Assembly: GCA_021732005.1 (NCBI GenBank)
Contig: JAKFVT010000043.1
Span: forward strand, 606-64,605
Reading direction: 5' to 3'
Source: Mycobacterium sp.
Lineage (GTDB): Bacteria; Actinomycetota; Actinomycetes; Mycobacteriales; Mycobacteriaceae
DNA length: 64,000 bases
Shown here: positions 1 through 8,762 of the stretch, in pieces
Layout: the number at the start of each line of letters is the position of its first letter
How positions within the stretch are numbered: position 1 is the first letter of the stretch
Made by a program: the position numbers and the translations under genes
The notes under the pieces: generated by a model
Database searches by the model: none
Seen by the model: the letters and a program-made list of their open reading frames with translations, nothing else
Told to the model about the DNA's origin: nothing

Positions 1-2244
1 CCCGGGACCGGCCTGGCCATCCCGATGACGAGTCCGCTGTTCCAGTTGCCCGGCAACCTCTCCAGCGGCTTCCTGGTCCAACTCGGACCCATCGGCACCA
101 GCCCGCAACTCAGCGTCGGCGTCACCGATGCCTTGCGCGATCAATTCACCTACGCCATCCCGGTGGCGCAACTGATCGGCGGCGGCACCTACCCCGTTTC
201 GGGCTACCCGATCCTGCAGCAGTTCGGCTTCTTCCCGCAGTATTACGCCCAGGACGGCACGAACCCCAGACAGCCCATCGGCACCGAGCAGTTCCCGCAG
301 TGCGCCAGCCAATGCCTGCCGACCCTGATCGACAGCGGGGCGCCGAGCACCGGCATCCGCCTCAAGGACATCCCCGGCGGCGACCCGTACAACGACAGCG
401 GGCAACTGAAACCCGGCGTCACCTTCATCGCCGAATTCCCCACCACCCAGGGCCGTCCGGCGCTGACGTGGGATTTCACTGCCGGAAACACCGGCTCGGT
501 GGATCTCGTTCAGTACCAGAGCGGTTCGGTGGCGACGAACACCCAGAACGTCAACACCGGCCTGACCCTGTACAACTATTACGACGTGATGTTCGATGTG
601 CAAGACCAGGTGATCTGGCTGCGCCCCAACGGGGGTGAATCCACCGTGAGCCTCAACTCCGTGACCACCACCGGCGACCAGATCTACCGGCAGAACGCAC
701 AACTCGACGGTAGCTACTCCACCGGTGGCGGGGTGTTCTCCGTCGCCGGAGTGACGACGCTCGCCGGTGCCACCACCGTCGACGCCGGACGTGGTGACGT
801 CACATTCTCCGGCACCGTCGACAGCACTGTCGGCGATCAGCAGTCTCTGACCGTGAACTCCAGCGGCGCAACCGCATTCGTCCGCCAGGTCGGCGCGAAC
901 ACGCCGCTGAAATCTCTCACCACCGATGTCGGCGGGTCAACCTCGACCGCGGCGGTCACCACCACCGAAGACCAGGCCTACAACGACAGCAGCGTCACTC
1001 TCAGTGGCCCATACCGAACCACGACCGGCAGCGTGCTGATAGGCGGCAGTGCCGAATTGGCCGGGCCGGCATCAATCCAGACGGGGGGTCCCGGCACCAT
1101 CACGCTCACCGGAACTGTTGACGCGCAGCCTGGGCGCGGCCTCACCCTCAAGCTGACCACCGCCGGCGGGGACATTCACCTCGGTGCCGCGGTCGGCGCG
1201 CAGAATCCCTTGGGCGGACTCGTCCTTGCCAGCACGGCCGGCGCCGGTGCGACGAAGGTCACCGCCGACGGTGCGATCAACCTCAACGGCAATCTCGGCT
1301 TCGCCAACCAGAACGGTCTGTCGATAGGGCCCTCGGTCACGGTGGACTTCAGCCACGGCGGCCTTATTCAGAACTTCTCGAAAACCGGCATCGTCCTTGA
1401 TCAGAGCGATGATTCGACGCTCGAGACGTTCATCGTCAGCAACAACGGAACCGGCGGCATCGTCGCGACGGACGTCAAGCGTTTGACGCTGACCGACAAC
1501 GCGGTGATGGGCAACGGTGCGCCGAACGGCGGTGACGGGATCGATATCGCCGGCGGCATCGACGTGGACATCACCGGCAACAGCATCATCGGCAACAGCG
1601 GTGACGGGATCGCCGTGTACAGCTCTGCGGGCCAGGTGACGGTGAGTTCCCAGCACATCACGCTGAGAGGGAACGTCATCGAAGGGAACACCGGCGACGG
1701 GATCGACCTGAAGGACGCCGATGACGTCGAGATCAGCGGCAACACCATCAACACCAATACCGCCAACGGCGTGCTGTCGCTGACCACCGACAGCGCCAAG
1801 ATCGAGACCAACACGATCAGCGGGAACGGCGAGCACGGTGTGACCGTCGACCAAGGCAGCGGCAACACGATCCTGTCGAACGCGATCTCGCTGAACGTCA
1901 TTGACGGGATCAGCCTTCAGAACGGCGGCAATGCGAACCAGAGCGCGCCGACGGTCGCGAGCGCGGTCATCAAGAATGGCCGGCTGATGGTGACGGGAAG
2001 CTTGACCGACCGCTCTGGTGATTACCGCCTGCAGGTGTTCTACTCGCCCCCACCGGTCAACGCCCAGGCGCCCCCGGTCCAAGGGCTCCAACTCCTGAGC
2101 GACACCACCGAGACGACCGACTCCTTCAGCGTCGACGTTCCCGGCGGCTCGCTCTGGCAGGGCTCCTACGTCACCGTCACCGCTACCGTCGGCGGTAACA
2201 CCTCGCAGTTCTCGGTGCCGGTCACGATCACCGTGGCGCCGTAG
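1..2244 (+). CDS. Large secreted/surface protein, 5' end outside the window: aspartic-protease-like C-lobe + two ~98-aa haemagglutinin-like repeats + right-handed parallel beta-helix + C-terminal Ig-like module
   Basis: Frame is open from base 1 (PGTGLAIPM...). TLIDSG at 322-339 and NTG...YDVMFD at 553-597 resemble pepsin-fold motifs. TTTxDQxY...GTVD repeats start at 664 and 958. Many GNxIxGNxxxGI beta-helix turns; ends ...VTATVGGNTSQFS. Confidence 0.7.
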   Translation, partial: PGTGLAIPMTSPLFQLPGNLSSGFLVQLGPIGTSPQLSVGVTDALRDQFTYAIPVAQLIGGGTYPVSGYPILQQFGFFPQYYAQDGTNPRQPIGTEQFPQCASQCLPTLIDSGAPSTGIRLKDIPGGDPYNDSGQLKPGVTFIAEFPTTQGRPALTWDFTAGNTGSVDLVQYQSGSVATNTQNVNTGLTLYNYYDVMFDVQDQVIWLRPNGGESTVSLNSVTTTGDQIYRQNAQLDGSYSTGGGVFSVAGVTTLAGATTVDAGRGDVTFSGTVDSTVGDQQSLTVNSSGATAFVRQVGANTPLKSLTTDVGGSTSTAAVTTTEDQAYNDSSVTLSGPYRTTTGSVLIGGSAELAGPASIQTGGPGTITLTGTVDAQPGRGLTLKLTTAGGDIHLGAAVGAQNPLGGLVLASTAGAGATKVTADGAINLNGNLGFANQNGLSIGPSVTVDFSHGGLIQNFSKTGIVLDQSDDSTLETFIVSNNGTGGIVATDVKRLTLTDNAVMGNGAPNGGDGIDIAGGIDVDITGNSIIGNSGDGIAVYSSAGQVTVSSQHITLRGNVIEGNTGDGIDLKDADDVEISGNTINTNTANGVLSLTTDSAKIETNTISGNGEHGVTVDQGSGNTILSNAISLNVIDGISLQNGGNANQSAPTVASAVIKNGRLMVTGSLTDRSGDYRLQVFYSPPPVNAQAPPVQGLQLLSDTTETTDSFSVDVPGGSLWQGSYVTVTATVGGNTSQFSVPVTITVAP

Positions 2245-3289
2245 CAGGCACGCCATTGCCTGCCGGGCAGTCTTGCCGGTTTGGGCCGGCGAGTGCCCCG
2301 GCCGCGCCGTCGATCGCCTCGGTCACCGCGTCGACCACCCGCGGGTCCCAGGTCAGCGCGGTGTCGCGGGGCAGTTGGGCGATCATCGACACGTAGTCGC
2401 TGTGGGTGTCGTCGACGATGCGGCACCGCCGGTGCGGCAACACCACGTCGTCGATGTCGCGGCCCAGCGCGCTGCGCAACTCCACCACCCCGTCATTCGG
2501 CCACACCGCCGGGGCGCCGCCGGCGTGGTCGAATCGATTGCCGCCGATCAGCGTGACCGGCACTGTGTCGAGGACACCCGCCTGAAAGCTGTTCCAGCCC
2601 TTGGGGCCAGTCAGATAGGACCGCCCGAGTTCCCGCGCGGAACCGGAAACATGAACGGCCGCAATATCTCTGGCATAGCCATTCATCTGGCTCGCGCAGA
2701 ACTGGTCGCCCAGGCAGTCGCTGATCTTGACCGTGCCCTCGACGAAGTTCGCCAGATAGGATCCCTGCCAGGGTGTTCCGATCGTCGTCAACGATCGCAC
2801 CCTCACCGCTGACTGCTCGGCCTTCAGGGTGCGGATAGCCGCCCGGGCGAACAGTCCACCCATCGAGTGGCCCACCAGATCCACCTCGTCGATGTGCTTC
2901 TCGGTGTGCAGCCAGTCGATGAACCGGGCCAGGTGCTCGCCGGCGAGGTCGATGCTGCCGGTGCTGTCGAGGGTCATCGACGAGGGCAGCGGCGCGGGGC
3001 AGGAGGCGAACGCGCCGTAACCTGTGGTGTCGTGCACCTGGCCGGGCCCGGCCATCGCCGGCGCGGTGAACACCGAATATCCCTTCCCCAGAAGGTGTTC
3101 GCGCAACGACGTGTGGTCGGTGCCGGCCGGCAGGCCGATCGCGCACCCGGCGTCCGGCGCGGTGTAGGGGGCGGTGCTGGCCAGTCCGGAGACCAGGACC
3201 ACCGCGTGGGCCGGCGGGTGGGTATCGCTGCCGCTGTGCGAGCAACCCGCCAGCAGCACCGCCGCCGCCAGCGCCAGGATGCGGCGCAC
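2228..3289 (-). CDS. Alpha/beta-hydrolase (lipase/esterase-like) lipoprotein, paralogue 2
   Basis: GTG at 3289 overlaps the upstream TAG; signal peptide with lipobox LLAGC; GHSMGG nucleophile elbow; TIGTPWQGS, WPNDG, DTHS motifs. Confidence 0.8.
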   Translation of the reverse strand: MRRILALAAAVLLAGCSHSGSDTHPPAHAVVLVSGLASTAPYTAPDAGCAIGLPAGTDHTSLREHLLGKGYSVFTAPAMAGPGQVHDTTGYGAFASCPAPLPSSMTLDSTGSIDLAGEHLARFIDWLHTEKHIDEVDLVGHSMGGLFARAAIRTLKAEQSAVRVRSLTTIGTPWQGSYLANFVEGTVKISDCLGDQFCASQMNGYARDIAAVHVSGSARELGRSYLTGPKGWNSFQAGVLDTVPVTLIGGNRFDHAGGAPAVWPNDGVVELRSALGRDIDDVVLPHRRCRIVDDTHSDYVSMIAQLPRDTALTWDPRVVDAVTEAIDGAAGALAGPNRQDCPAGNGVPATAPR

Positions 3290-4335
3290 TAGGTCGGGCA
3301 GCCTTCCCGGTTGGGGCGAGAGAGCGCATTGGGTGCGTCGTCGATGGCCTTGTGCACGACCTCGAGCACCTGCGGGTCCCACGTCAGTGCGGTCTTCTGT
3401 TCCAGCCCAGCAAGATTGGAGACGAAAATGCTGTGGGTGTCGTCGAAGGTCGAACAGCGCCGATGCGGCAGGACCGGGTCGCTGATGTCCTTGGCCAGCG
3501 CACTCTGCAGCGCGACGATGCCGTCATTCGGCCACACCGCCGGGTTCACCGGGCCGTCCTTTGTGAATTTCTTGCCGCCGATCAGCACCACCGGGATCTT
3601 GTCGAGCACCCCGGACTGGTATTCGTTCCAGCCGTTCTTGCCCATCAGGAACGCCTGGTTGACCTCGCGGCCCGAACCGGCCATGAGCCGCTTCACCTCG
3701 TCGGACATGCCTTTCATCGACGTCTCGCAGAAGGTGTCACCCTTGCAATCGCTCAGTGGGACCAGCCCGTTGGCGAAATCCGACAGATAGGAGCCCTGCC
3801 ACGGTGTCCCGATGGTGGTCAACGACCGCACCTTCAGCGGCGAGTTCGTCGACGCCAGCACCCGGATGGCGGCACGGGAGTACAGCCCACCCATCGAGTG
3901 CCCGACGAAGTCGACCTCGGTGACGCCCTTGTCGGTGTGCAACCAGTTGAGGAACCGGGCCAGGTGTTCGCCCGCGGTGTCGATGCTGCCCGTCGAGTCG
4001 ACCGTCATGTTCTCCGGCAAGGTGACCGGGCAGACGCCGAACGGTCCGAACCCGGTCTGGTCGACCACCTGGCCGCGACCGGCCATCGCGGGGGAGGTGT
4101 AGACGGTGTAGCCCTTGCCGAGCAGATACTCCCGCAGCGCGGTGTCGCTGTTGCCGGCGGCCAGCCCGGTCTTGCACGCCTGCTCCGGGCCGGTGAACGG
4201 CGTCGTCGCATCCCCGCCGGACACGATCACCACCGCCGTCGACGCCGGGCGCTTCTCGTCACCGGCGTCGCTGCCGCACCCGGCCAGCGCGCAGATCATC
4301 GTCATAGCGGCGGCCAGCGCCAGTGTTCCTCGCAC
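3289..4335 (-). CDS. Alpha/beta-hydrolase (lipase/esterase-like) lipoprotein, paralogue 1
   Basis: Lipobox ALAGC, GHSMGG, TIGTPWQGS, WPNDG, DTHS. Start uncertain: GTG 4335 preferred; the track start at 4410 overlaps trpS. Confidence 0.8.
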   Translation of the reverse strand: MRGTLALAAAMTMICALAGCGSDAGDEKRPASTAVVIVSGGDATTPFTGPEQACKTGLAAGNSDTALREYLLGKGYTVYTSPAMAGRGQVVDQTGFGPFGVCPVTLPENMTVDSTGSIDTAGEHLARFLNWLHTDKGVTEVDFVGHSMGGLYSRAAIRVLASTNSPLKVRSLTTIGTPWQGSYLSDFANGLVPLSDCKGDTFCETSMKGMSDEVKRLMAGSGREVNQAFLMGKNGWNEYQSGVLDKIPVVLIGGKKFTKDGPVNPAVWPNDGIVALQSALAKDISDPVLPHRRCSTFDDTHSIFVSNLAGLEQKTALTWDPQVLEVVHKAIDDAPNALSRPNREGCPT

Positions 4336-4391
4336 GAAGCAGGATGCTAATGCCACTCGACCGTCCGAGATGGGCCTCGTGACAGGATTGA

Positions 4392-5414
<1,023 letters not shown>

Positions 5415-5430
5415 ACACGAGAGGCTGGGC

Positions 5431-6459
5431 ATGTCAGAACCGGCCGAACCGGGTCGCCTCGACCGGCTGCGGGCCCGCTACCACTGGATCGACCATGCGA
5501 TCCGTGCCGGGGCGCGCTATCAGAACGTCAAGGGTGACTTCTACGCGGCAGGCATCACCTATTTCACGATCTTCGCGCTGTTCCCCCTGCTGATGGTCGG
5601 GTTCGCGGCCGGCGGCTTCGTGCTGGCCAGCCGGCCGCACCTGTTGGCCGATATCGAAAGCCGAATCAGGACAACGGTTTCCGGGGACTTCGGCCAGCAG
5701 CTGATCGGGCTGATCGATTCGGCGATCGACTCCCGCACGTCGGTGGGTGTGATCGGTCTGGCGACCGCGGCGTGGGCGGGGCTGGGCTGGATCGCGAATC
5801 TGCGTGAGGCGCTGAGCCAGATGTGGGATCAGCGCGTCGAGGAACAGAACTTCCTGCGCACCAAACTGTCGGATCTGGCGGTGCTGCTGTCGGTTTTCGT
5901 CGCGATCGTCGTGACGGTCGCGCTGACCGCGCTGGCTGATCCGTCGCTGATGACGAACGTGCTGGAGTGGATCGGTGTGCCGCATATCGCCGGGCTCGGC
6001 GGCGCGCTGCGAATTCTCTCGCTGTTGATGTCGTGGGGGGTGTCGTGGCTGTTGTTCAGCTGGATGATCGCGCGGCTGCCCCGCGAGTCGGTGAGCTTCC
6101 GCAGCAGTGTGCGCGCCGGGCTGATGGCCGCGGTGGCGTTCGAGCTCTTCAAGCTGGTCGGGTCGTTCTATCTGCGGTCGGTGGTGCACGGTCCGGCCGG
6201 TGCGACGTTCGGGCCGGTGCTGGGTCTGATGGTGTTCGCCTACATCACCGCGCGGCTGGTGCTGTTCGCCACCGCGTGGGCGGCGACGTCGAAGGACAAC
6301 GTGCGTCCCGACCCGGTTCCGGCACCCGGCCCAGCGGTGATCTCGCCGCGGGTGGGGCCGGACGAAGGTCTGAGCACCCGGCAGACGGTCGCCGCGATGG
6401 CGGTGGGTGCGGTTGGCGCACTCGGTGTTTCGCGGCTCTGGCGCCGGGGACGCGACTAG
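5431..6459 (+). CDS. yhjD: YihY/virulence factor BrkB family inner-membrane protein (YhjD, Rv3335c-like)
   Basis: AAGITYFTIFALFPLL motif, multiple TM segments, position directly after trpS. Confidence 0.85.
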   Translation: MSEPAEPGRLDRLRARYHWIDHAIRAGARYQNVKGDFYAAGITYFTIFALFPLLMVGFAAGGFVLASRPHLLADIESRIRTTVSGDFGQQLIGLIDSAIDSRTSVGVIGLATAAWAGLGWIANLREALSQMWDQRVEEQNFLRTKLSDLAVLLSVFVAIVVTVALTALADPSLMTNVLEWIGVPHIAGLGGALRILSLLMSWGVSWLLFSWMIARLPRESVSFRSSVRAGLMAAVAFELFKLVGSFYLRSVVHGPAGATFGPVLGLMVFAYITARLVLFATAWAATSKDNVRPDPVPAPGPAVISPRVGPDEGLSTRQTVAAMAVGAVGALGVSRLWRRGRD

Positions 6460-6466
6460 GTCGGGT

Positions 6467-7702
6467 TTACCTGCCGCGCACCGGCCTGCGATTAATGGCA
6501 CGCGCCACCATGATCAGTGAGAACACCACCAGCGTGCCGACCACCCCGACGCCCACCCGCACCGGCACCGCGTCCGCCGCGGGGAGTAGCTGGGTGCCGC
6601 TGGCTTTGATCGCGGCGGCTTCATCCGGCTTGGGCGGCAGCAGCGATGGATCCGGGTCGATCAGGTTCCCGATCCGGGTTCCGGGCGGGGTGGCGAAGCC
6701 GTAGTCGAGCAGATGCGCGGCCTGTTGCCACGGCGGGATCGGCTGCCGGGTGCCGCGCATCAGCACCGCCACCAGCCGGCGGCCGTCGCGGTTGGCGGCG
6801 CCGACGAACGTCTGTCCGGCATCGTCGGTGTAACCCGTCTTGCCACCGAGCGCGCCCGGATAGTTGTAGAGCAGCTGGTTGTCGTTCTCCAGCTGGTAGC
6901 CGGGATGGTCACCGTCTTCTCCCGGCTTCGCCGGATGCCCGGGGAAGTCGTACTTCTGGGTCGCGACGATGCTCGCGAAAGTGGGGTTCTCCCAGGCGTA
7001 GCGGTAGAACAGGCCGATGTCGTAGGCCGACGTGCTCATGCCCGGCCCGTCCAGACCGGACGGTGTCGCCGCGCGGGTGTCCTGGCCGCCGAGCTTGCGG
7101 GCCAGCGTGTTGATCTTCTGCAGGGCGGTGTCCATGCCGCCGACCTGTGCGGCCAGCGCGTGCGCGGCGTCGTTGCCGGAATGCATCAGCAGGCCGTGCA
7201 ACAGGTCGTTGACGGTGTACTTGCCGCCCTCGTCCACGCCCACCCGGGTGCCTTCGGCGTTGGCGTCGTCCTGGGTGCCTGCGACGATCTTGTTGAGCGG
7301 CAGTTCGTTCATGGCCTGCATCGCGATGAGGACCTTGATGATGCTGGCGGGTCGGTGCCGGGCGTGTGGATCGCGTGCGGCGATGATGTCGCCGGTGTCG
7401 AGGTCGGCCACCACCCACGATTCGGCCGAGATGTCGTCGGGGACCGGCGGTGTGCCCGCCGCGACGATCACTCCGCATCCCGCCAGCGCGTCGCCGCCCA
7501 CCGGCTTGGCAGGAACGGGAAGCGGTTGCGGTGGGTCGCCTGCCTGGGGCACCTCAGAGGAGTCGACGGCAGGCGGGGTGGTCACCCGGTAGGGGCACGT
7601 GTTGGGGTCCGGGTCCGCCCACGCGGTCGCCGACGTGCCGACGACGCACAGCGTCGCGGCCACCGCGGCAGCACACCGCGTGAAGAGTTTCGAGCTCGCC
7701 AT
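6467..7702 (-). CDS. dacB1: D-alanyl-D-alanine carboxypeptidase (peptidase S11, DacB1/Rv3330-like)
   Basis: PASIIK (SxxK), SGN (SxN), KTG motifs; signal peptide; C-terminal TM anchor. ATG 7702 has TACTCT 8 nt upstream. Confidence 0.9.
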
Positions 7703-7769
7703 CGACTCGCAGAGTAGGGGATTGGAGCCCGGAAACCGGGGAGCCGCGCTGTGACAGGAGTGGTTGGTG

Positions 7770-8762
7770 TTACAAATCGAGACACGCGACGGCCGACGAC
7801 CCGATGCAGCCCAGCCACAGGGTGCCGTCATGCTCCACGAGCCCGGTGGCCAGCGCGAACCGCGGATCGACGGTCCGCAGCTGCGACGTCACCGTGCCGT
7901 CGAGATCAATCGATATCGCCCACACCACCGGCTTGGGGCTGGGCAGCCAACCGTAGGGCAGTCGCCACATCAGCCGGCGCACCACCGGAGCGCGCGGAGC
8001 CAGCCATTCGCCGACCGCGTTGCGTTCGCTGACCAACGCGACCCAGATACGTCCGTCGGGGGCCGTCGAGATGTTGTCCGGATAGCCGGGCAGGTGCTCG
8101 ATCAGCGGCACCGGCTCGCCGATACCCGAACCCGTCAGCGGGTACTTCGACACCCGGCAGGCCGTCGTCTCGGCGACCACCAGGGCCGACTCGTCGGCGG
8201 TCAGCGTCACCCCGTTGGCGAAGCGCAGTCCACTGGCCAGCGTCGTCACGGTGCCGTCGACGTCCCGGCGGAACAGTGACCCGCTGGGCCGGGCCTCGAG
8301 TACGGCGCCCTTGTAGTACTCGTAGTGGAAGCGCGACGTCGACTCGGTGAAAAAGATTGTGCCGTCTGATGATTCGACGACATTGCTGCAGAACGTCAAC
8401 GGCCGTCCGGCCACTTCGCTCACCAGGGTCTCGAATGAGCCGGTGGCCGGATCGAGGCGCAGCAGCCCACGGTGGCTGTCGCAGATCAGCAGCCTGCCGT
8501 CTCGGGCAACCGTCAGCCCGAGTGGTCGGCCGCCGGTGTTGGCCACCACCTCGGGGGCGTGGCCTTTCCGGATCCGCACGATCGCCCCGTTGTCGGTTCC
8601 GGTCCAGAGCGTGCCGTCAGCGTCGACCACGACGTCCTCGGGAGCATGACCTGGGACACCGATCACCCGCAGCGACCCGGACAGATCCGGCGGTGGCAGT
8701 CGCCGAAGGGGAGGCGGCTGCCACCGCACGGGATCGATCGGGGGTTTGGCGGCCCCGGTCAC
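7770..8762 (-). CDS. SMP-30/gluconolactonase/strictosidine-synthase-like beta-propeller protein
   Basis: PEDVVVD, GRPLGL, FANGV, GYPDNI motifs; GTG overlaps the aminotransferase stop. Confidence 0.85.

What the first reader, a model, noticed from the sequence alone, without database searches (positions are those of the whole stretch)
1..2244. Mosaic surface protein: aspartic-protease-like lobe fused to adhesin-like repeats, a beta-helix and an Ig-like cap
Seen: LIDSG and the NTG..Y...DVMFD..Q..IWL strand at the start, two 98-aa repeats (664 and 958), a long beta-helix and a C-terminal ...VTATVGGNTSQFS. Knowledge: mycobacterial PecA-type PE_PGRS proteins carry pepsin-like domains that process secreted proteins. 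From memory, the repeats and the NTS(E/Q)FS cap are more typical of large cyanobacterial/planctomycete surface proteins. Inference: a self-processing or substrate-processing adhesin with an architecture unusual for mycobacteria.
Basis: partly seen in the sequence, partly recalled or inferred. Interest (0 to 1): 0.65.

Follow-up and report, generated by a model that had tools for sequence, protein, structure and literature searches.

The report
Exported pepsin-like protease on beta-helix stalk
The window starts two-fifths of the way into a gene for a large exported protein of an environmental mycobacterium, in which an unannotated pepsin-type protease domain, a distant relative of the PecA surface proteases of tuberculosis bacteria, sits on a long beta-helical stalk; it shows that secreted pepsin-like enzymes are much more widespread in bacteria than current annotation suggests.

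Summary
Window 1-2244 (+) is one uninterrupted reading frame of 747 codons that runs off the left edge. It encodes the last three-fifths of a ~1250-aa protein. The closest full-length relatives are M. rhodesiae (86% aa identity) and M. aichiense (86%).

- the C-lobe of a pepsin-like domain (LIDSGA, NTG...IWLRP);
- two 98-aa repeats (34% identical, E=6e-9);
- a PbH1/NosD beta-helix (Pfam E=2e-21);
- a C-terminal beta-sandwich ending in NTSQFS.

- Full-length relatives carry an invariant FDTGG 211 residues upstream of the DSG.
- The AlphaFold model (pLDDT 88.7, pTM 0.89) matches hundreds of pepsin-family structures. PE_PGRS16 (4EHC) gives the best target-normalised TM-score, 0.73.

The protein is not a PE_PGRS protein. 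Relatives start with a Sec-type signal peptide and have no PE or PGRS domain.

The same architecture occurs in Planctomycetota. The domain also belongs to a large, unnamed family of secreted stand-alone proteins, and a profile of these links it to 4EHC (E=2e-11).

The most likely function is an extracytoplasmic aspartic endopeptidase held on a beta-helical stalk. Activity and substrates are untested.

The parts
1..645 (+). Last 215 residues of the pepsin-like domain: the end of the N-lobe and inter-lobe region, and the whole C-lobe. The first ~500 residues of the protein lie left of the window. They comprise the signal peptide, a linker, the N-terminal beta domain and the N-lobe with DTGG.
   Evidence: 89-91% identical to residues 376-590 of P0001. 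The model of P0001 223-603 is a pepsin fold. dN/dS is 0.10.
37..60 (+). LFQLPGNL, a signature motif of this domain family (Q, L, P, G invariant).
298..315 (+). QCASQC cysteine pair in a variable loop just before the second catalytic motif. A possible disulphide, which would fit an extracytoplasmic location.
   Evidence: Sequence. Present in some family members and deleted in others. The disulphide is inferred.
325..342 (+). LIDSGA, the second catalytic motif. The Asp is at nt 331-333 and corresponds to pepsin Asp215.
   Evidence: D and G are invariant in 45 homologues and in 48 stand-alone relatives. The profile alignment places it on MFDSGG of 4EHC.
553..627 (+). NTGLTLYNYYDVMFDVQDQVIWLRP, the C-lobe psi-loop position (NTG instead of hydrophobic-hydrophobic-Gly) and the final strands of the pepsin fold.
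   Evidence: NTG aligns with VMNTGH of 4EHC. Strands are predicted at this position.
664..957 (+). 98-aa beta-strand repeat, copy 1.
   Evidence: 34% identical to copy 2, E=6e-9. Matches FHA/TpsA-type repeat proteins. All-beta with pLDDT above 90 in the full-length model.
958..1251 (+). 98-aa beta-strand repeat, copy 2.
1252..1941 (+). Right-handed parallel beta-helix: transition coils followed by PbH1/NosD-type repeats. The Pfam-supported core is about nt 1645-1944.
   Evidence: Pfam Beta_helix 1.9e-21 and NosD 7.4e-19. TIGR03804 matches five times. This is the least conserved module of the family.
1942..2244 (+). C-terminal ~100-aa beta-sandwich cap ending ...VTATVGGNTSQFSVPVTITVAP, followed by the stop codon.
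   Evidence: Six strands predicted with high confidence. T, S, F of the NTSxFS motif are invariant. Weak match to the Bap Ig-like repeat 7dm0, E=0.025. No Pfam family matches.

Best explanation
Window 1-2244 encodes the C-terminal 747 residues of a ~1250-residue exported multidomain protein of an environmental Mycolicibacterium from a drinking-water metagenome.

The full protein is read from orthologues. In order it has: a Sec-type signal peptide; a ~100-residue Pro/Ala/Arg-rich linker; a CxxCWG motif and a conserved helical segment; a ~190-residue beta domain; a ~370-residue bilobal pepsin-like domain with DTGG and DSGA; two and a fraction FHA-like 98-residue beta-helical repeats; a PbH1/NosD beta-helix; and a small beta-sandwich cap.

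Proposed mechanism. The protein is exported by Sec. The two invariant aspartates form a pepsin-type active site that cleaves proteins in the cell envelope or on the surface, possibly including the protein itself. The rigid beta-helical stalk and cap position or retain the enzyme, plausibly by binding envelope or matrix glycans.

What is shown: the modules, the pepsin fold, motif invariance, purifying selection, the signal peptide in orthologues, and homology to the PE-PGRS_C/PecA protease domain.

What is inferred: catalytic activity, location beyond the plasma membrane, substrates, self-processing and glycan binding.
For: Fold:
- The domain model has pLDDT 88.7 and pTM 0.89.
- Foldseek found 525 PDB hits at E<=1e-3, and all 50 listed are pepsin-family proteases. 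4EHC (PE_PGRS16) has TMt 0.73 and 18% identity.
- The full-length model (pLDDT 87.7, pTM 0.81) gives the same result.

Active site:
- FDTGG and D(S/T)G are invariant in 45 family members and in 48 distant stand-alone relatives.
- A Y-x-S-G segment is conserved and aligns with YAGG of 4EHC.

Sequence bridge to known proteases:
- The A1 profile finds 446 representative clusters.
- hhalign of A1 against stand-alone relatives gives probability 100%, E=7e-69.
- The profile of those relatives hits 4EHC at E=2.4e-11 and fungal pepsins at about 0.006.
- 14 of 58 relatives carry a precomputed PF20729 hit.

Export:
- The M. rhodesiae orthologue begins MSELTAGLRVGAAAFVLGLSVAGPAGLATA|D.
- 20 of 28 loci have such a signal in frame, and three of the other eight are cut by a contig edge.
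- Stand-alone relatives carry signal peptides and PEP-CTERM or IPTL-CTERM sorting tags.

Selection: dN/dS is 0.10 in the protease part against 0.26-0.39 in the repeats and PbH1 region. The protease N-lobe is the most conserved module across the family.

Precedent: PecA is an active surface aspartic protease with DTG/DSG (PMC6819658). PMC13578627 notes that some fast growers encode a PecA-like protease domain without PE or PGRS.
Against: - No enzymatic data exist for any member.
- The closest solved relative, PE_PGRS16, showed no proteolytic activity in vitro (PMC6819658).
- The canonical A1 motif is only partly kept. The residue after each D-T/S-G is Gly or Ala, not Ser/Thr, and the psi-loop motifs read DFG and NTG instead of hydrophobic-hydrophobic-Gly.
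- Pfam, NCBIfam and direct PDB sequence searches do not recognise the domain.
- The window lacks the N-lobe and the signal peptide, so both are inferred from orthologues at 86% aa identity.
- The model coordinates could not be inspected, so the Asp-Asp geometry was not measured.
- No anchoring motif was identified, and how a protein this large would cross the mycomembrane is unknown.
- No RNA data were found.
Confidence: 0.66

Rival explanations
1. Pepsin-fold pseudo-enzyme. The domain keeps the fold and motifs but works as a binding module, so the protein is a pure adhesin or structural surface fibre.
For: PE_PGRS16 has DTG/DSG and the fold, yet no activity was detected. This family deviates from the canonical A1 motif at the position after each D-T/S-G and in both psi-loop motifs. 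FHA-like repeats and a beta-helix are typical of adhesins.
Against: Both Asp, the Thr/Ser and both Gly are invariant across two phyla and in distant stand-alone relatives that have no adhesin modules. The protease part is under the strongest purifying selection. PecA, which has the same deviations at NTG, is active.
Confidence: 0.15
2. The main activity is on glycans. The PbH1/NosD-type beta-helix is a polysaccharide lyase, hydrolase, epimerase or binding domain. The protease domain only matures or releases the protein (autoprocessing).
For: There are significant PbH1/NosD matches, and the nearest PDB sequence neighbour of that region is the alginate C5-epimerase AlgG, though only weakly at E=0.06. 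PecA cleaves itself.
Against: PbH1 is the least conserved module, with mean column conservation 0.39 and only 9 invariant columns of 162. No catalytic signature was recognised. Planctomycete and paralogous copies vary or replace the C-terminal modules while keeping the N-domain and pepsin domain.
Confidence: 0.14
3. Non-functional remnant: a decaying or unexpressed gene.
For: Some copies in other genomes are broken. M. litorale L013 has an in-frame stop and M. psychrotolerans L019 is split. No RNA runs were found.
Against: The 747 codons here are intact. dN/dS is 0.22 against an orthologue with dS 0.40. GC3 is 0.86, typical of the genome's coding regions.
Confidence: 0.04

Closest known systems
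PecA (PE_PGRS35), PecB, PecC (PE26) and PE_PGRS16 of M. tuberculosis / M. marinum; Pfam PF20729 PE-PGRS_C; structure 4EHC
   Same: Bilobal pepsin-like domain with DTG and DSG. NTG at the C-lobe psi-loop position. Of the 50 Foldseek hits listed, 4EHC has the highest target-normalised TM-score (0.73) and the highest sequence identity (18%). The only significant PDB sequence hit of the wider family profile is 4EHC (E=2.4e-11). The location is extracytoplasmic and the host is a mycobacterium.
   Different: No PE domain, no YxxxD/E type VII signal and no PGRS linker; a Sec signal peptide instead. The protease domain is internal, not C-terminal. DTG-to-DSG spacing is 211 residues against 177 in PecA. 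It is flanked by beta-helical modules. It falls below the Pfam threshold for PF20729. It is found in fast-growing environmental species and in Planctomycetota.
Bacterial pepsin homologues of MEROPS family A1 (shewasin A and D and relatives; Rawlings and Bateman 2009)
   Same: Bilobed pepsin-type enzymes encoded in bacterial genomes.
   Different: Those proteins lack signal peptides, are predicted or shown to be intracellular, are single-domain, and are detectable as family A1 by sequence (PMC2761423; PMC4814920). The present family is exported, is fused to stalk domains, and is not detected by the Pfam Asp model.
Eukaryotic pepsins (pepsin, chymosin, renin, plasmepsins, fungal aspartic proteinases)
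   Same: Same fold: TM-score 0.57-0.65 normalised to the target. Two catalytic Asp. The C-terminal motif resembles the pepsin ending.
   Different: 12-17% identity. No recognisable prosegment next to the domain. Gly/Ala instead of Ser35/Thr218. Altered psi-loop motifs. Longer inter-lobe insertions.
PbH1 / NosD / CASH right-handed beta-helix proteins (e.g. AlgG)
   Same: Window aa ~440-647 match Pfam Beta_helix and NosD above threshold.
   Different: The match is to the repeat only. The NosD subfamily model scores 38 bits against a cut-off of 300. No copper-chaperone or epimerase context.
Filamentous haemagglutinin / TpsA-type beta-helical repeat proteins
   Same: The 98-aa repeats (aa 210-430) align at 35-45% identity with repeats of proteins that carry TPS (PF05860), PF18886 or POTRA_2 domains.
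   Different: No TPS secretion domain and no TpsB partner nearby.

Membership tests
Peptidase family A1 (pepsin-like fold) | Bilobal pepsin fold | tested here: met
   AF2 models (pLDDT 88.7 and 87.7) with Foldseek: 525 PDB hits at E<=1e-3, and all 50 listed are pepsin-family proteases. Tested on the 86%-identical relative P0001. The window itself holds only the C-lobe.
Peptidase family A1 (pepsin-like fold) | One Asp-Thr/Ser-Gly in each lobe | tested here: met
   FDTGG and LIDSGA; D, T and G, and D and G, are invariant in 45 sequences. Only the second motif lies in the window (nt 325-342).
Peptidase family A1 (pepsin-like fold) | [quoted passage not shown] | tested here: not met
   The residue after Gly is Gly in the N-lobe and Ala in the C-lobe. 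The N-lobe Asp is preceded by Glu-Phe.
Peptidase family A1 (pepsin-like fold) | Two hydrophobic-hydrophobic-Gly psi-loop motifs | tested here: not met
   The corresponding conserved positions read D-F-G (invariant) and N-T-G. The correspondence comes from sequence pattern and the 4EHC alignment, not from inspected coordinates.
Peptidase family A1 (pepsin-like fold) | Flap tyrosine (Tyr75) | tested here: inconclusive
   The Tyr in Y-x-S-G is nearly invariant and aligns with Y-A-G-G of 4EHC. Its position on the flap was not checked in coordinates.
Peptidase family A1 (pepsin-like fold) | Match to the Pfam Asp (PF00026) model | tested here: not met
   No hit, even at E<=10.
Peptidase family A1 (pepsin-like fold) | Pepstatin-sensitive endopeptidase activity | not testable with these tools
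   Needs a biochemical assay.
Pec / PE_PGRS aspartic proteases (PecA type) | N-terminal PE domain with a YxxxD/E type VII secretion signal | tested here: not met
   Orthologue N-termini carry a Sec-type signal peptide plus linker. No Pfam PE hit.
Pec / PE_PGRS aspartic proteases (PecA type) | PGRS (GGAGGX) linker | tested here: not met
   No such repeats in the full-length homologues.
Pec / PE_PGRS aspartic proteases (PecA type) | Protease domain homologous to PE-PGRS_C (PF20729 / 4EHC) | tested here: met
   Homology is transitive. A1 against A3 gives probability 100%. A3 against 4EHC gives E=2.4e-11. Structural TMt is 0.73. However, the protein itself scores below the Pfam PF20729 threshold, and relatives are sub-threshold or have precomputed hits.
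Pec / PE_PGRS aspartic proteases (PecA type) | Cleaves PE/PPE proteins and itself at the cell surface | not testable with these tools
   Experimental. PE_PGRS substrates are reported absent from fast growers (PMC13578627).
PbH1 / NosD right-handed beta-helix | Pfam Beta_helix / NosD match above the gathering score | tested here: met
   76.8 bits against 25.9, and 68.5 bits against 23.6.
TpsA / filamentous haemagglutinin adhesins | N-terminal TPS secretion domain (PF05860) | tested here: not met
   No hit in the full-length homologues. Only the repeat type is shared.
Bacterial Ig-like domains (Bap/Big type) | Significant sequence or fold match for the C-terminal cap | tested here: inconclusive
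   The profile hits the 7dm0 Bap repeat at E=0.025 on the VTAT..GNTSE motif. No Pfam hit below 1e-3. The model predicts a six-strand sandwich, but no separate fold search was possible.

The most novel reading that the evidence does not exclude
The domain belongs to a large, unrecognised clade of secreted bacterial pepsins. It comprises at least 446 clusters at 50% identity, spread over Planctomycetota, Verrucomicrobiota, Proteobacteria, Thermodesulfobacteriota and mycobacteria. The PecA/PE-PGRS_C surface proteases of pathogenic mycobacteria would be one offshoot of this clade.

On this reading the mycobacterial beta-helix fusion was acquired once from a planctomycete. It still carries, now internal, a fossil of the planctomycete N-terminal 'LExRxLL' motif, seen as LVLVRRSLFF. 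A new Sec signal peptide and linker were then added upstream.

A further speculative point: the invariant Arg-Arg helix could act as a prosegment that blocks the active site.
Probability: 0.3. Interest if true: 0.75.

Novelty: new variant of a known kind. Interest (0 to 1): 0.6.

Why it matters
Pepsin-type proteases are regarded as rare in bacteria and mostly cytoplasmic. The known exception is the type VII-secreted Pec proteases of slow-growing pathogenic mycobacteria.

This gene shows a second route to a surface pepsin in the same genus: Sec export and fusion to a beta-helical stalk. It also ties the Pec protease domain to a broad family of secreted proteins in environmental diderm bacteria. 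Databases label these only as 'hypothetical' or 'beta-helix repeat' proteins.

That has three uses:
- It gives a tractable, non-pathogenic model for PecA-like enzymology.
- It offers a hypothesis for where the Pec protease domain came from.
- It makes a case for a new or widened Pfam/MEROPS family.

Tried and rejected
- Direct sequence annotation failed for the protease part. Pfam and NCBIfam on the window protein and on three full-length homologues gave only Beta_helix/NosD. phmmer and the A1 profile against PDB gave only chance-level hits.
- An exact look-up of contigs encoding P0001 found nothing on record.
- A homologue search with the C-terminal 114 residues alone returned nothing, probably a limit of the word index for short queries. 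The taxonomic spread of the NTS(E/Q)FS cap on its own therefore remains untested.
- Conserved-neighbour analysis over 45 loci found tandem paralogues but no conserved partner gene. CorA/Usp neighbours occur in only six loci. No secretion-system genes were seen.
- The extra ~420-aa insertion in the M. rhodesiae upstream paralogue could be a second, different pepsin-like unit judging by DTGS and FFNTGR motifs.
- A type VII / PE origin was rejected on the N-terminal evidence.
- A lipoprotein anchor was rejected, because the signal peptides have no lipobox.
- A Tat signal is unlikely, because the closest orthologues lack a twin arginine.
- Mis-binning as the explanation for the planctomycete hits was considered, because of the 'Kuenenia' label on a 66% GC contig. 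It was rejected for the group as a whole. The copies have planctomycete-style N-termini, one flank encodes an OMP beta-barrel protein, and the copies sit basal to the mycobacterial clade.
- No RNA-seq runs hold the sequence.
Full report
1. What is in the window

Frame 1 of window 1-2244 is open for 747 codons and ends at a TAG at 2242-2244. It continues past the left edge, so the ATG at nt 25 that the ORF lister reports is internal. GC3 is 0.86, like the other genes of this 65-70% GC window.

- LIDSGA at nt 325-342.
- NTGLTLYNYYDVMFDVQDQVIWLRP at nt 553-627.
- Repeat starts at nt 667 and 961.
- NTSQFS at nt 2197-2214.

The two 98-aa units align at 34% identity (E=6e-9). The region after them is a significant PbH1/NosD beta-helix: Pfam 1.9e-21 and 7.4e-19, and five TIGR03804 repeats.

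None of Pfam, NCBIfam or a PDB sequence search says anything about the first 215 residues.

2. The missing front of the gene

A protein search found 102 relatives, most of them 1000-1300 aa. The best are Mycolicibacterium aichiense (86% identity, annotated length 1122 aa) and Mycobacterium sp. WY10 (85%). All are named 'right-handed parallel beta-helix repeat-containing' or 'hypothetical'.

At the DNA level the window is 89.5% identical over 6 kb to M. rhodesiae DSM 44223 contig 13, held here as L001. Read sets that contain the exact sequence are drinking-water metagenomes.

In nearly all full-length relatives a DTGG lies 200-215 residues upstream of the DSGA. In a 45-sequence alignment D275, T276, G277, G278, D486 and G488 (P0001 numbering) are invariant.

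3. Fold

An AlphaFold2 model was made of P0001 residues 223-603, using a 20-sequence alignment. It has mean pLDDT 88.7 and pTM 0.89.

Foldseek against the PDB gave 525 hits at E<=1e-3. All 50 hits listed are pepsin-family enzymes: plasmepsins, endothiapepsin, renin, chymosin and fungal proteinases. [quoted passage not shown] It has the highest target-normalised TM-score (0.73) and the highest identity (18%).

A full-length model (1122 residues, 45 sequences, pLDDT 87.7, pTM 0.81) is almost entirely beta outside two low-confidence N-terminal helices. It again retrieves only pepsins in the top 50. This answers the second refutation test: the fold is pepsin-like.

4. Sequence bridge to known proteases

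An exhaustive HMMER search with the domain profile found 446 representative clusters (at 50% identity) at E<=1e-3 and 60 at E<=1e-30.

Many are stand-alone proteins of 340-480 aa. They have N-terminal signal peptides, and some have PEP-CTERM or IPTL-CTERM sorting tags. Three of ten scanned have sub-threshold matches to Pfam PF20729, 'PE-PGRS C-terminal aspartyl peptidase-like domain'.

A 48-sequence alignment of such proteins keeps D-T-G and D-T/S-G invariant. Three results link it in both directions:
- It matches the mycobacterial domain profile with hhalign probability 100%, E=7e-69.
- It hits 4EHC in the PDB at E=2.4e-11.
- It hits candidapepsin and other fungal pepsins at about 0.006-0.1.

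That alignment places DTG on LLDTGS, D-T/S-G on MFDSGG, Y-x-S-G on YAGG and NTG on VMNTGH of PE_PGRS16.

A final search with this alignment showed named members in Methylococcus, Chthoniobacterales, Thermodesulfobacteriota and Gammaproteobacteria, all 'hypothetical protein'. Fourteen of the 58 carry precomputed PF20729 hits.

The window's domain is therefore a divergent homologue of the PE-PGRS_C/PecA protease domain within a much larger unnamed family.

5. Export signal and architecture

The NCBI start of the M. aichiense protein (MGTVVNHVFNS...) is probably too far downstream. The M. rhodesiae orthologue is open from an ATG 128 codons further up. It begins MSELTAGLRVGAAAFVLGLSVAGPAGLATA|DTG, which is a Sec-type signal peptide with an AxA site. 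After the signal peptide come:
- about 100 residues rich in Pro, Ala and Arg;
- a CAACWG motif;
- the conserved VNHVFNSAF...GALVLVRRSLFFVPEGV segment.

A pattern search found such an in-frame signal peptide in 20 of 28 loci that have the conserved segment. Three of the eight without it are cut by a contig edge. Many database homologues start the same way.

There is no PE domain, no PGRS repeat, no lipobox and no twin arginine in the closest orthologues. The answer is a signal peptide.

6. Planctomycete copies

A scan of one genome per prokaryotic species found 45 loci. About 35 are in Mycolicibacterium or Mycobacterium genomes and MAGs, and about ten are in Planctomycetota MAGs at 40-46% identity.

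The planctomycete ORFs are 1480-2480 aa. They keep the N-terminal beta domain plus the pepsin-like domain, and they begin with ...ERLESRALLAAG...ERLERRTLLAV or ...EQLDDRVLLSV. From memory, this is the usual N-terminal motif of planctomycete secreted giants. One flank encodes an OMP beta-barrel protein.

MAFFT aligns this motif with the mycobacterial LVLVRRSLFF, with L, R and L invariant. In a neighbour-joining tree the mycobacterial copies form one clade and the planctomycete copies are basal to it (no support values).

This fits a single transfer into mycobacteria, followed by addition of a Sec signal and linker. It is not proven.

7. Other modules

Non-family hits of the first search align only to window residues ~210-430, at 35-45% identity. 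They include proteins with TPS, PF18886, PATR or POTRA_2 domains, one named 'filamentous hemagglutinin family protein', and one from a Planctomycetota MAG. This supports the 'adhesin-like repeats' reading.

A copy of the same repeat type also precedes the pepsin domain (VDAG..ATF.GTVDA....QSLTVTAL..TTF), as seen. The protease therefore sits between stalk repeats.

For the C-terminal ~100 residues the model predicts a six-strand sandwich. A profile of this region gives only a weak hit (E=0.025) to the Ig-like repeats of a biofilm-associated surface protein, on the shared VTATD.DGNTSE motif, and no Pfam family. 'Ig-like' is plausible but not established.

8. Constraint

Against the M. rhodesiae orthologue (dS 0.40), dN/dS by region is:

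| Region | dN/dS |
|---|---|
| Protease part | 0.10 |
| C-terminal cap | 0.15 |
| Repeats | 0.26-0.39 |
| PbH1 region | 0.34 |

Across 45 homologues the pepsin N-lobe (0.74) and the N-terminal segment (0.73) are the best conserved. The PbH1 region is the worst, with mean column conservation 0.39. The gene is under selection, and the protease is its most constrained part.

9. Context

Downstream of the gene lie:
- two convergent paralogous lipoprotein alpha/beta-hydrolases;
- trpS;
- a BrkB/YihY membrane protein;
- a D-Ala-D-Ala carboxypeptidase;
- metabolic genes.

There are no secretion-system genes and no conserved partner across loci.

Several genomes have two or more copies, often in tandem. 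In M. rhodesiae a paralogue with a large extra insertion lies immediately upstream. No second copy lies in the window.

10. Mechanism

The best-supported reading is an extracytoplasmic aspartic endopeptidase.
- Sec exports the protein.
- The invariant Asp pair forms a pepsin-type site.
- The beta-helical repeats, PbH1 domain and cap act as a rigid stalk and retention module.

The precedent is PecA, an active surface protease with the same DTG/DSG pair that cleaves itself and other envelope proteins (PMC6819658; PMC13578627). The latter paper notes in passing that some fast growers encode a PecA-like protease domain without PE or PGRS. This family may be what the authors saw.

Caveats:
- The canonical A1 motif definition (PMC2761423) is met only in part. 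The residue after each DTG/DSG is Gly or Ala, and the psi-loop motifs read DFG and NTG.
- PE_PGRS16 showed no activity.
- The coordinates could not be inspected.
- The N-lobe and signal peptide are inferred from orthologues.

I put 0.66 on an active exported protease, 0.15 on a pseudo-enzyme or adhesin, 0.14 on a glycan-directed protein with only autoprocessing, and 0.04 on a dead gene.

11. Novelty and score

The kind is known: a pepsin-like protease at the mycobacterial surface. The variant is new in four ways:
- a different export route;
- a protease inserted in a beta-helical stalk;
- a distribution shared with Planctomycetota;
- membership of a large unannotated family of secreted bacterial pepsins that links PF20729 to family A1.

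A specialist would find this moderately surprising and directly testable. Interest is 0.6.

Noticed in passing
window 2228-3382 (-) and 3289-4410 (-): Two tandem paralogous alpha/beta-hydrolases (PGAP1/DUF676-like), each with a lipoprotein signal (…LLAGC, …ALAGC). They are convergent with the beta-helix/pepsin gene, and the first overlaps its 3' end by 17 nt. They are probably secreted lipases or esterases. The same pair follows the orthologue in M. rhodesiae.
   Followed up: partly
L001:1-4203 (M. rhodesiae contig 13, immediately upstream of the orthologue): A tandem paralogue, cut by the contig end, with its own FDTGG/LIDSGA domain. It also has a ~420-aa insertion in the beta-helix carrying INLDTGSRGLYV … VLDMGFNEGILTLPG … FFNTGRQAFAGFDYLYD. 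The same module ends planctomycete L032 and starts P0112. It may be a second, different pepsin-like unit. Pfam and PDB sequence searches were silent.
   Followed up: partly
P0001 (M. aichiense) versus L001:4221-7973: The database start of the closest homologue (MGTVVNHV…) seems to be called 128 codons too far downstream. This removes the signal peptide and linker from the annotated protein. Many short family entries look the same.
   Followed up: partly
L013 (M. litorale F4) and L019 (M. psychrotolerans P7): Some copies are broken. L013 has an in-frame stop inside the protease domain, which matches the 521-aa fragment P0080. The L019 orthologue is split into two overlapping ORFs. These are either pseudogenes or assembly errors.
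   Followed up: no
L034, L035, L044 (Planctomycetota MAG contigs): The planctomycete copies are ~2450-aa giants. Ahead of the shared N-domain and pepsin-like domain they have a Gly-rich N-terminal module (GGxGGxGG runs) and Ig-like repeats. L035 is labelled Candidatus Kuenenia but has 66% GC, so that contig is probably mis-binned.
   Followed up: partly
P0113 and P0112 (metagenomic relatives): P0113 (889 aa) has two tandem copies of the pepsin-like domain followed by Ig-like repeats. P0112 strings several units together, separated by PEP-CTERM-like hydrophobic tails, which may reflect fused gene calls.
   Followed up: no
window 1-2000: AT skew is +0.17, far above the rest of the window. This probably reflects the Thr/Asn/Gln-rich composition of the beta-helical protein (ACC, AAC and CAG codons) rather than a replication signal.
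   Followed up: no
window 4398-7831: trpS, a BrkB/YihY-family membrane protein and a D-Ala-D-Ala carboxypeptidase follow downstream. From memory, this order resembles the trpS region of other mycobacteria, so the protease gene sits at the edge of a conserved housekeeping block.
   Followed up: no
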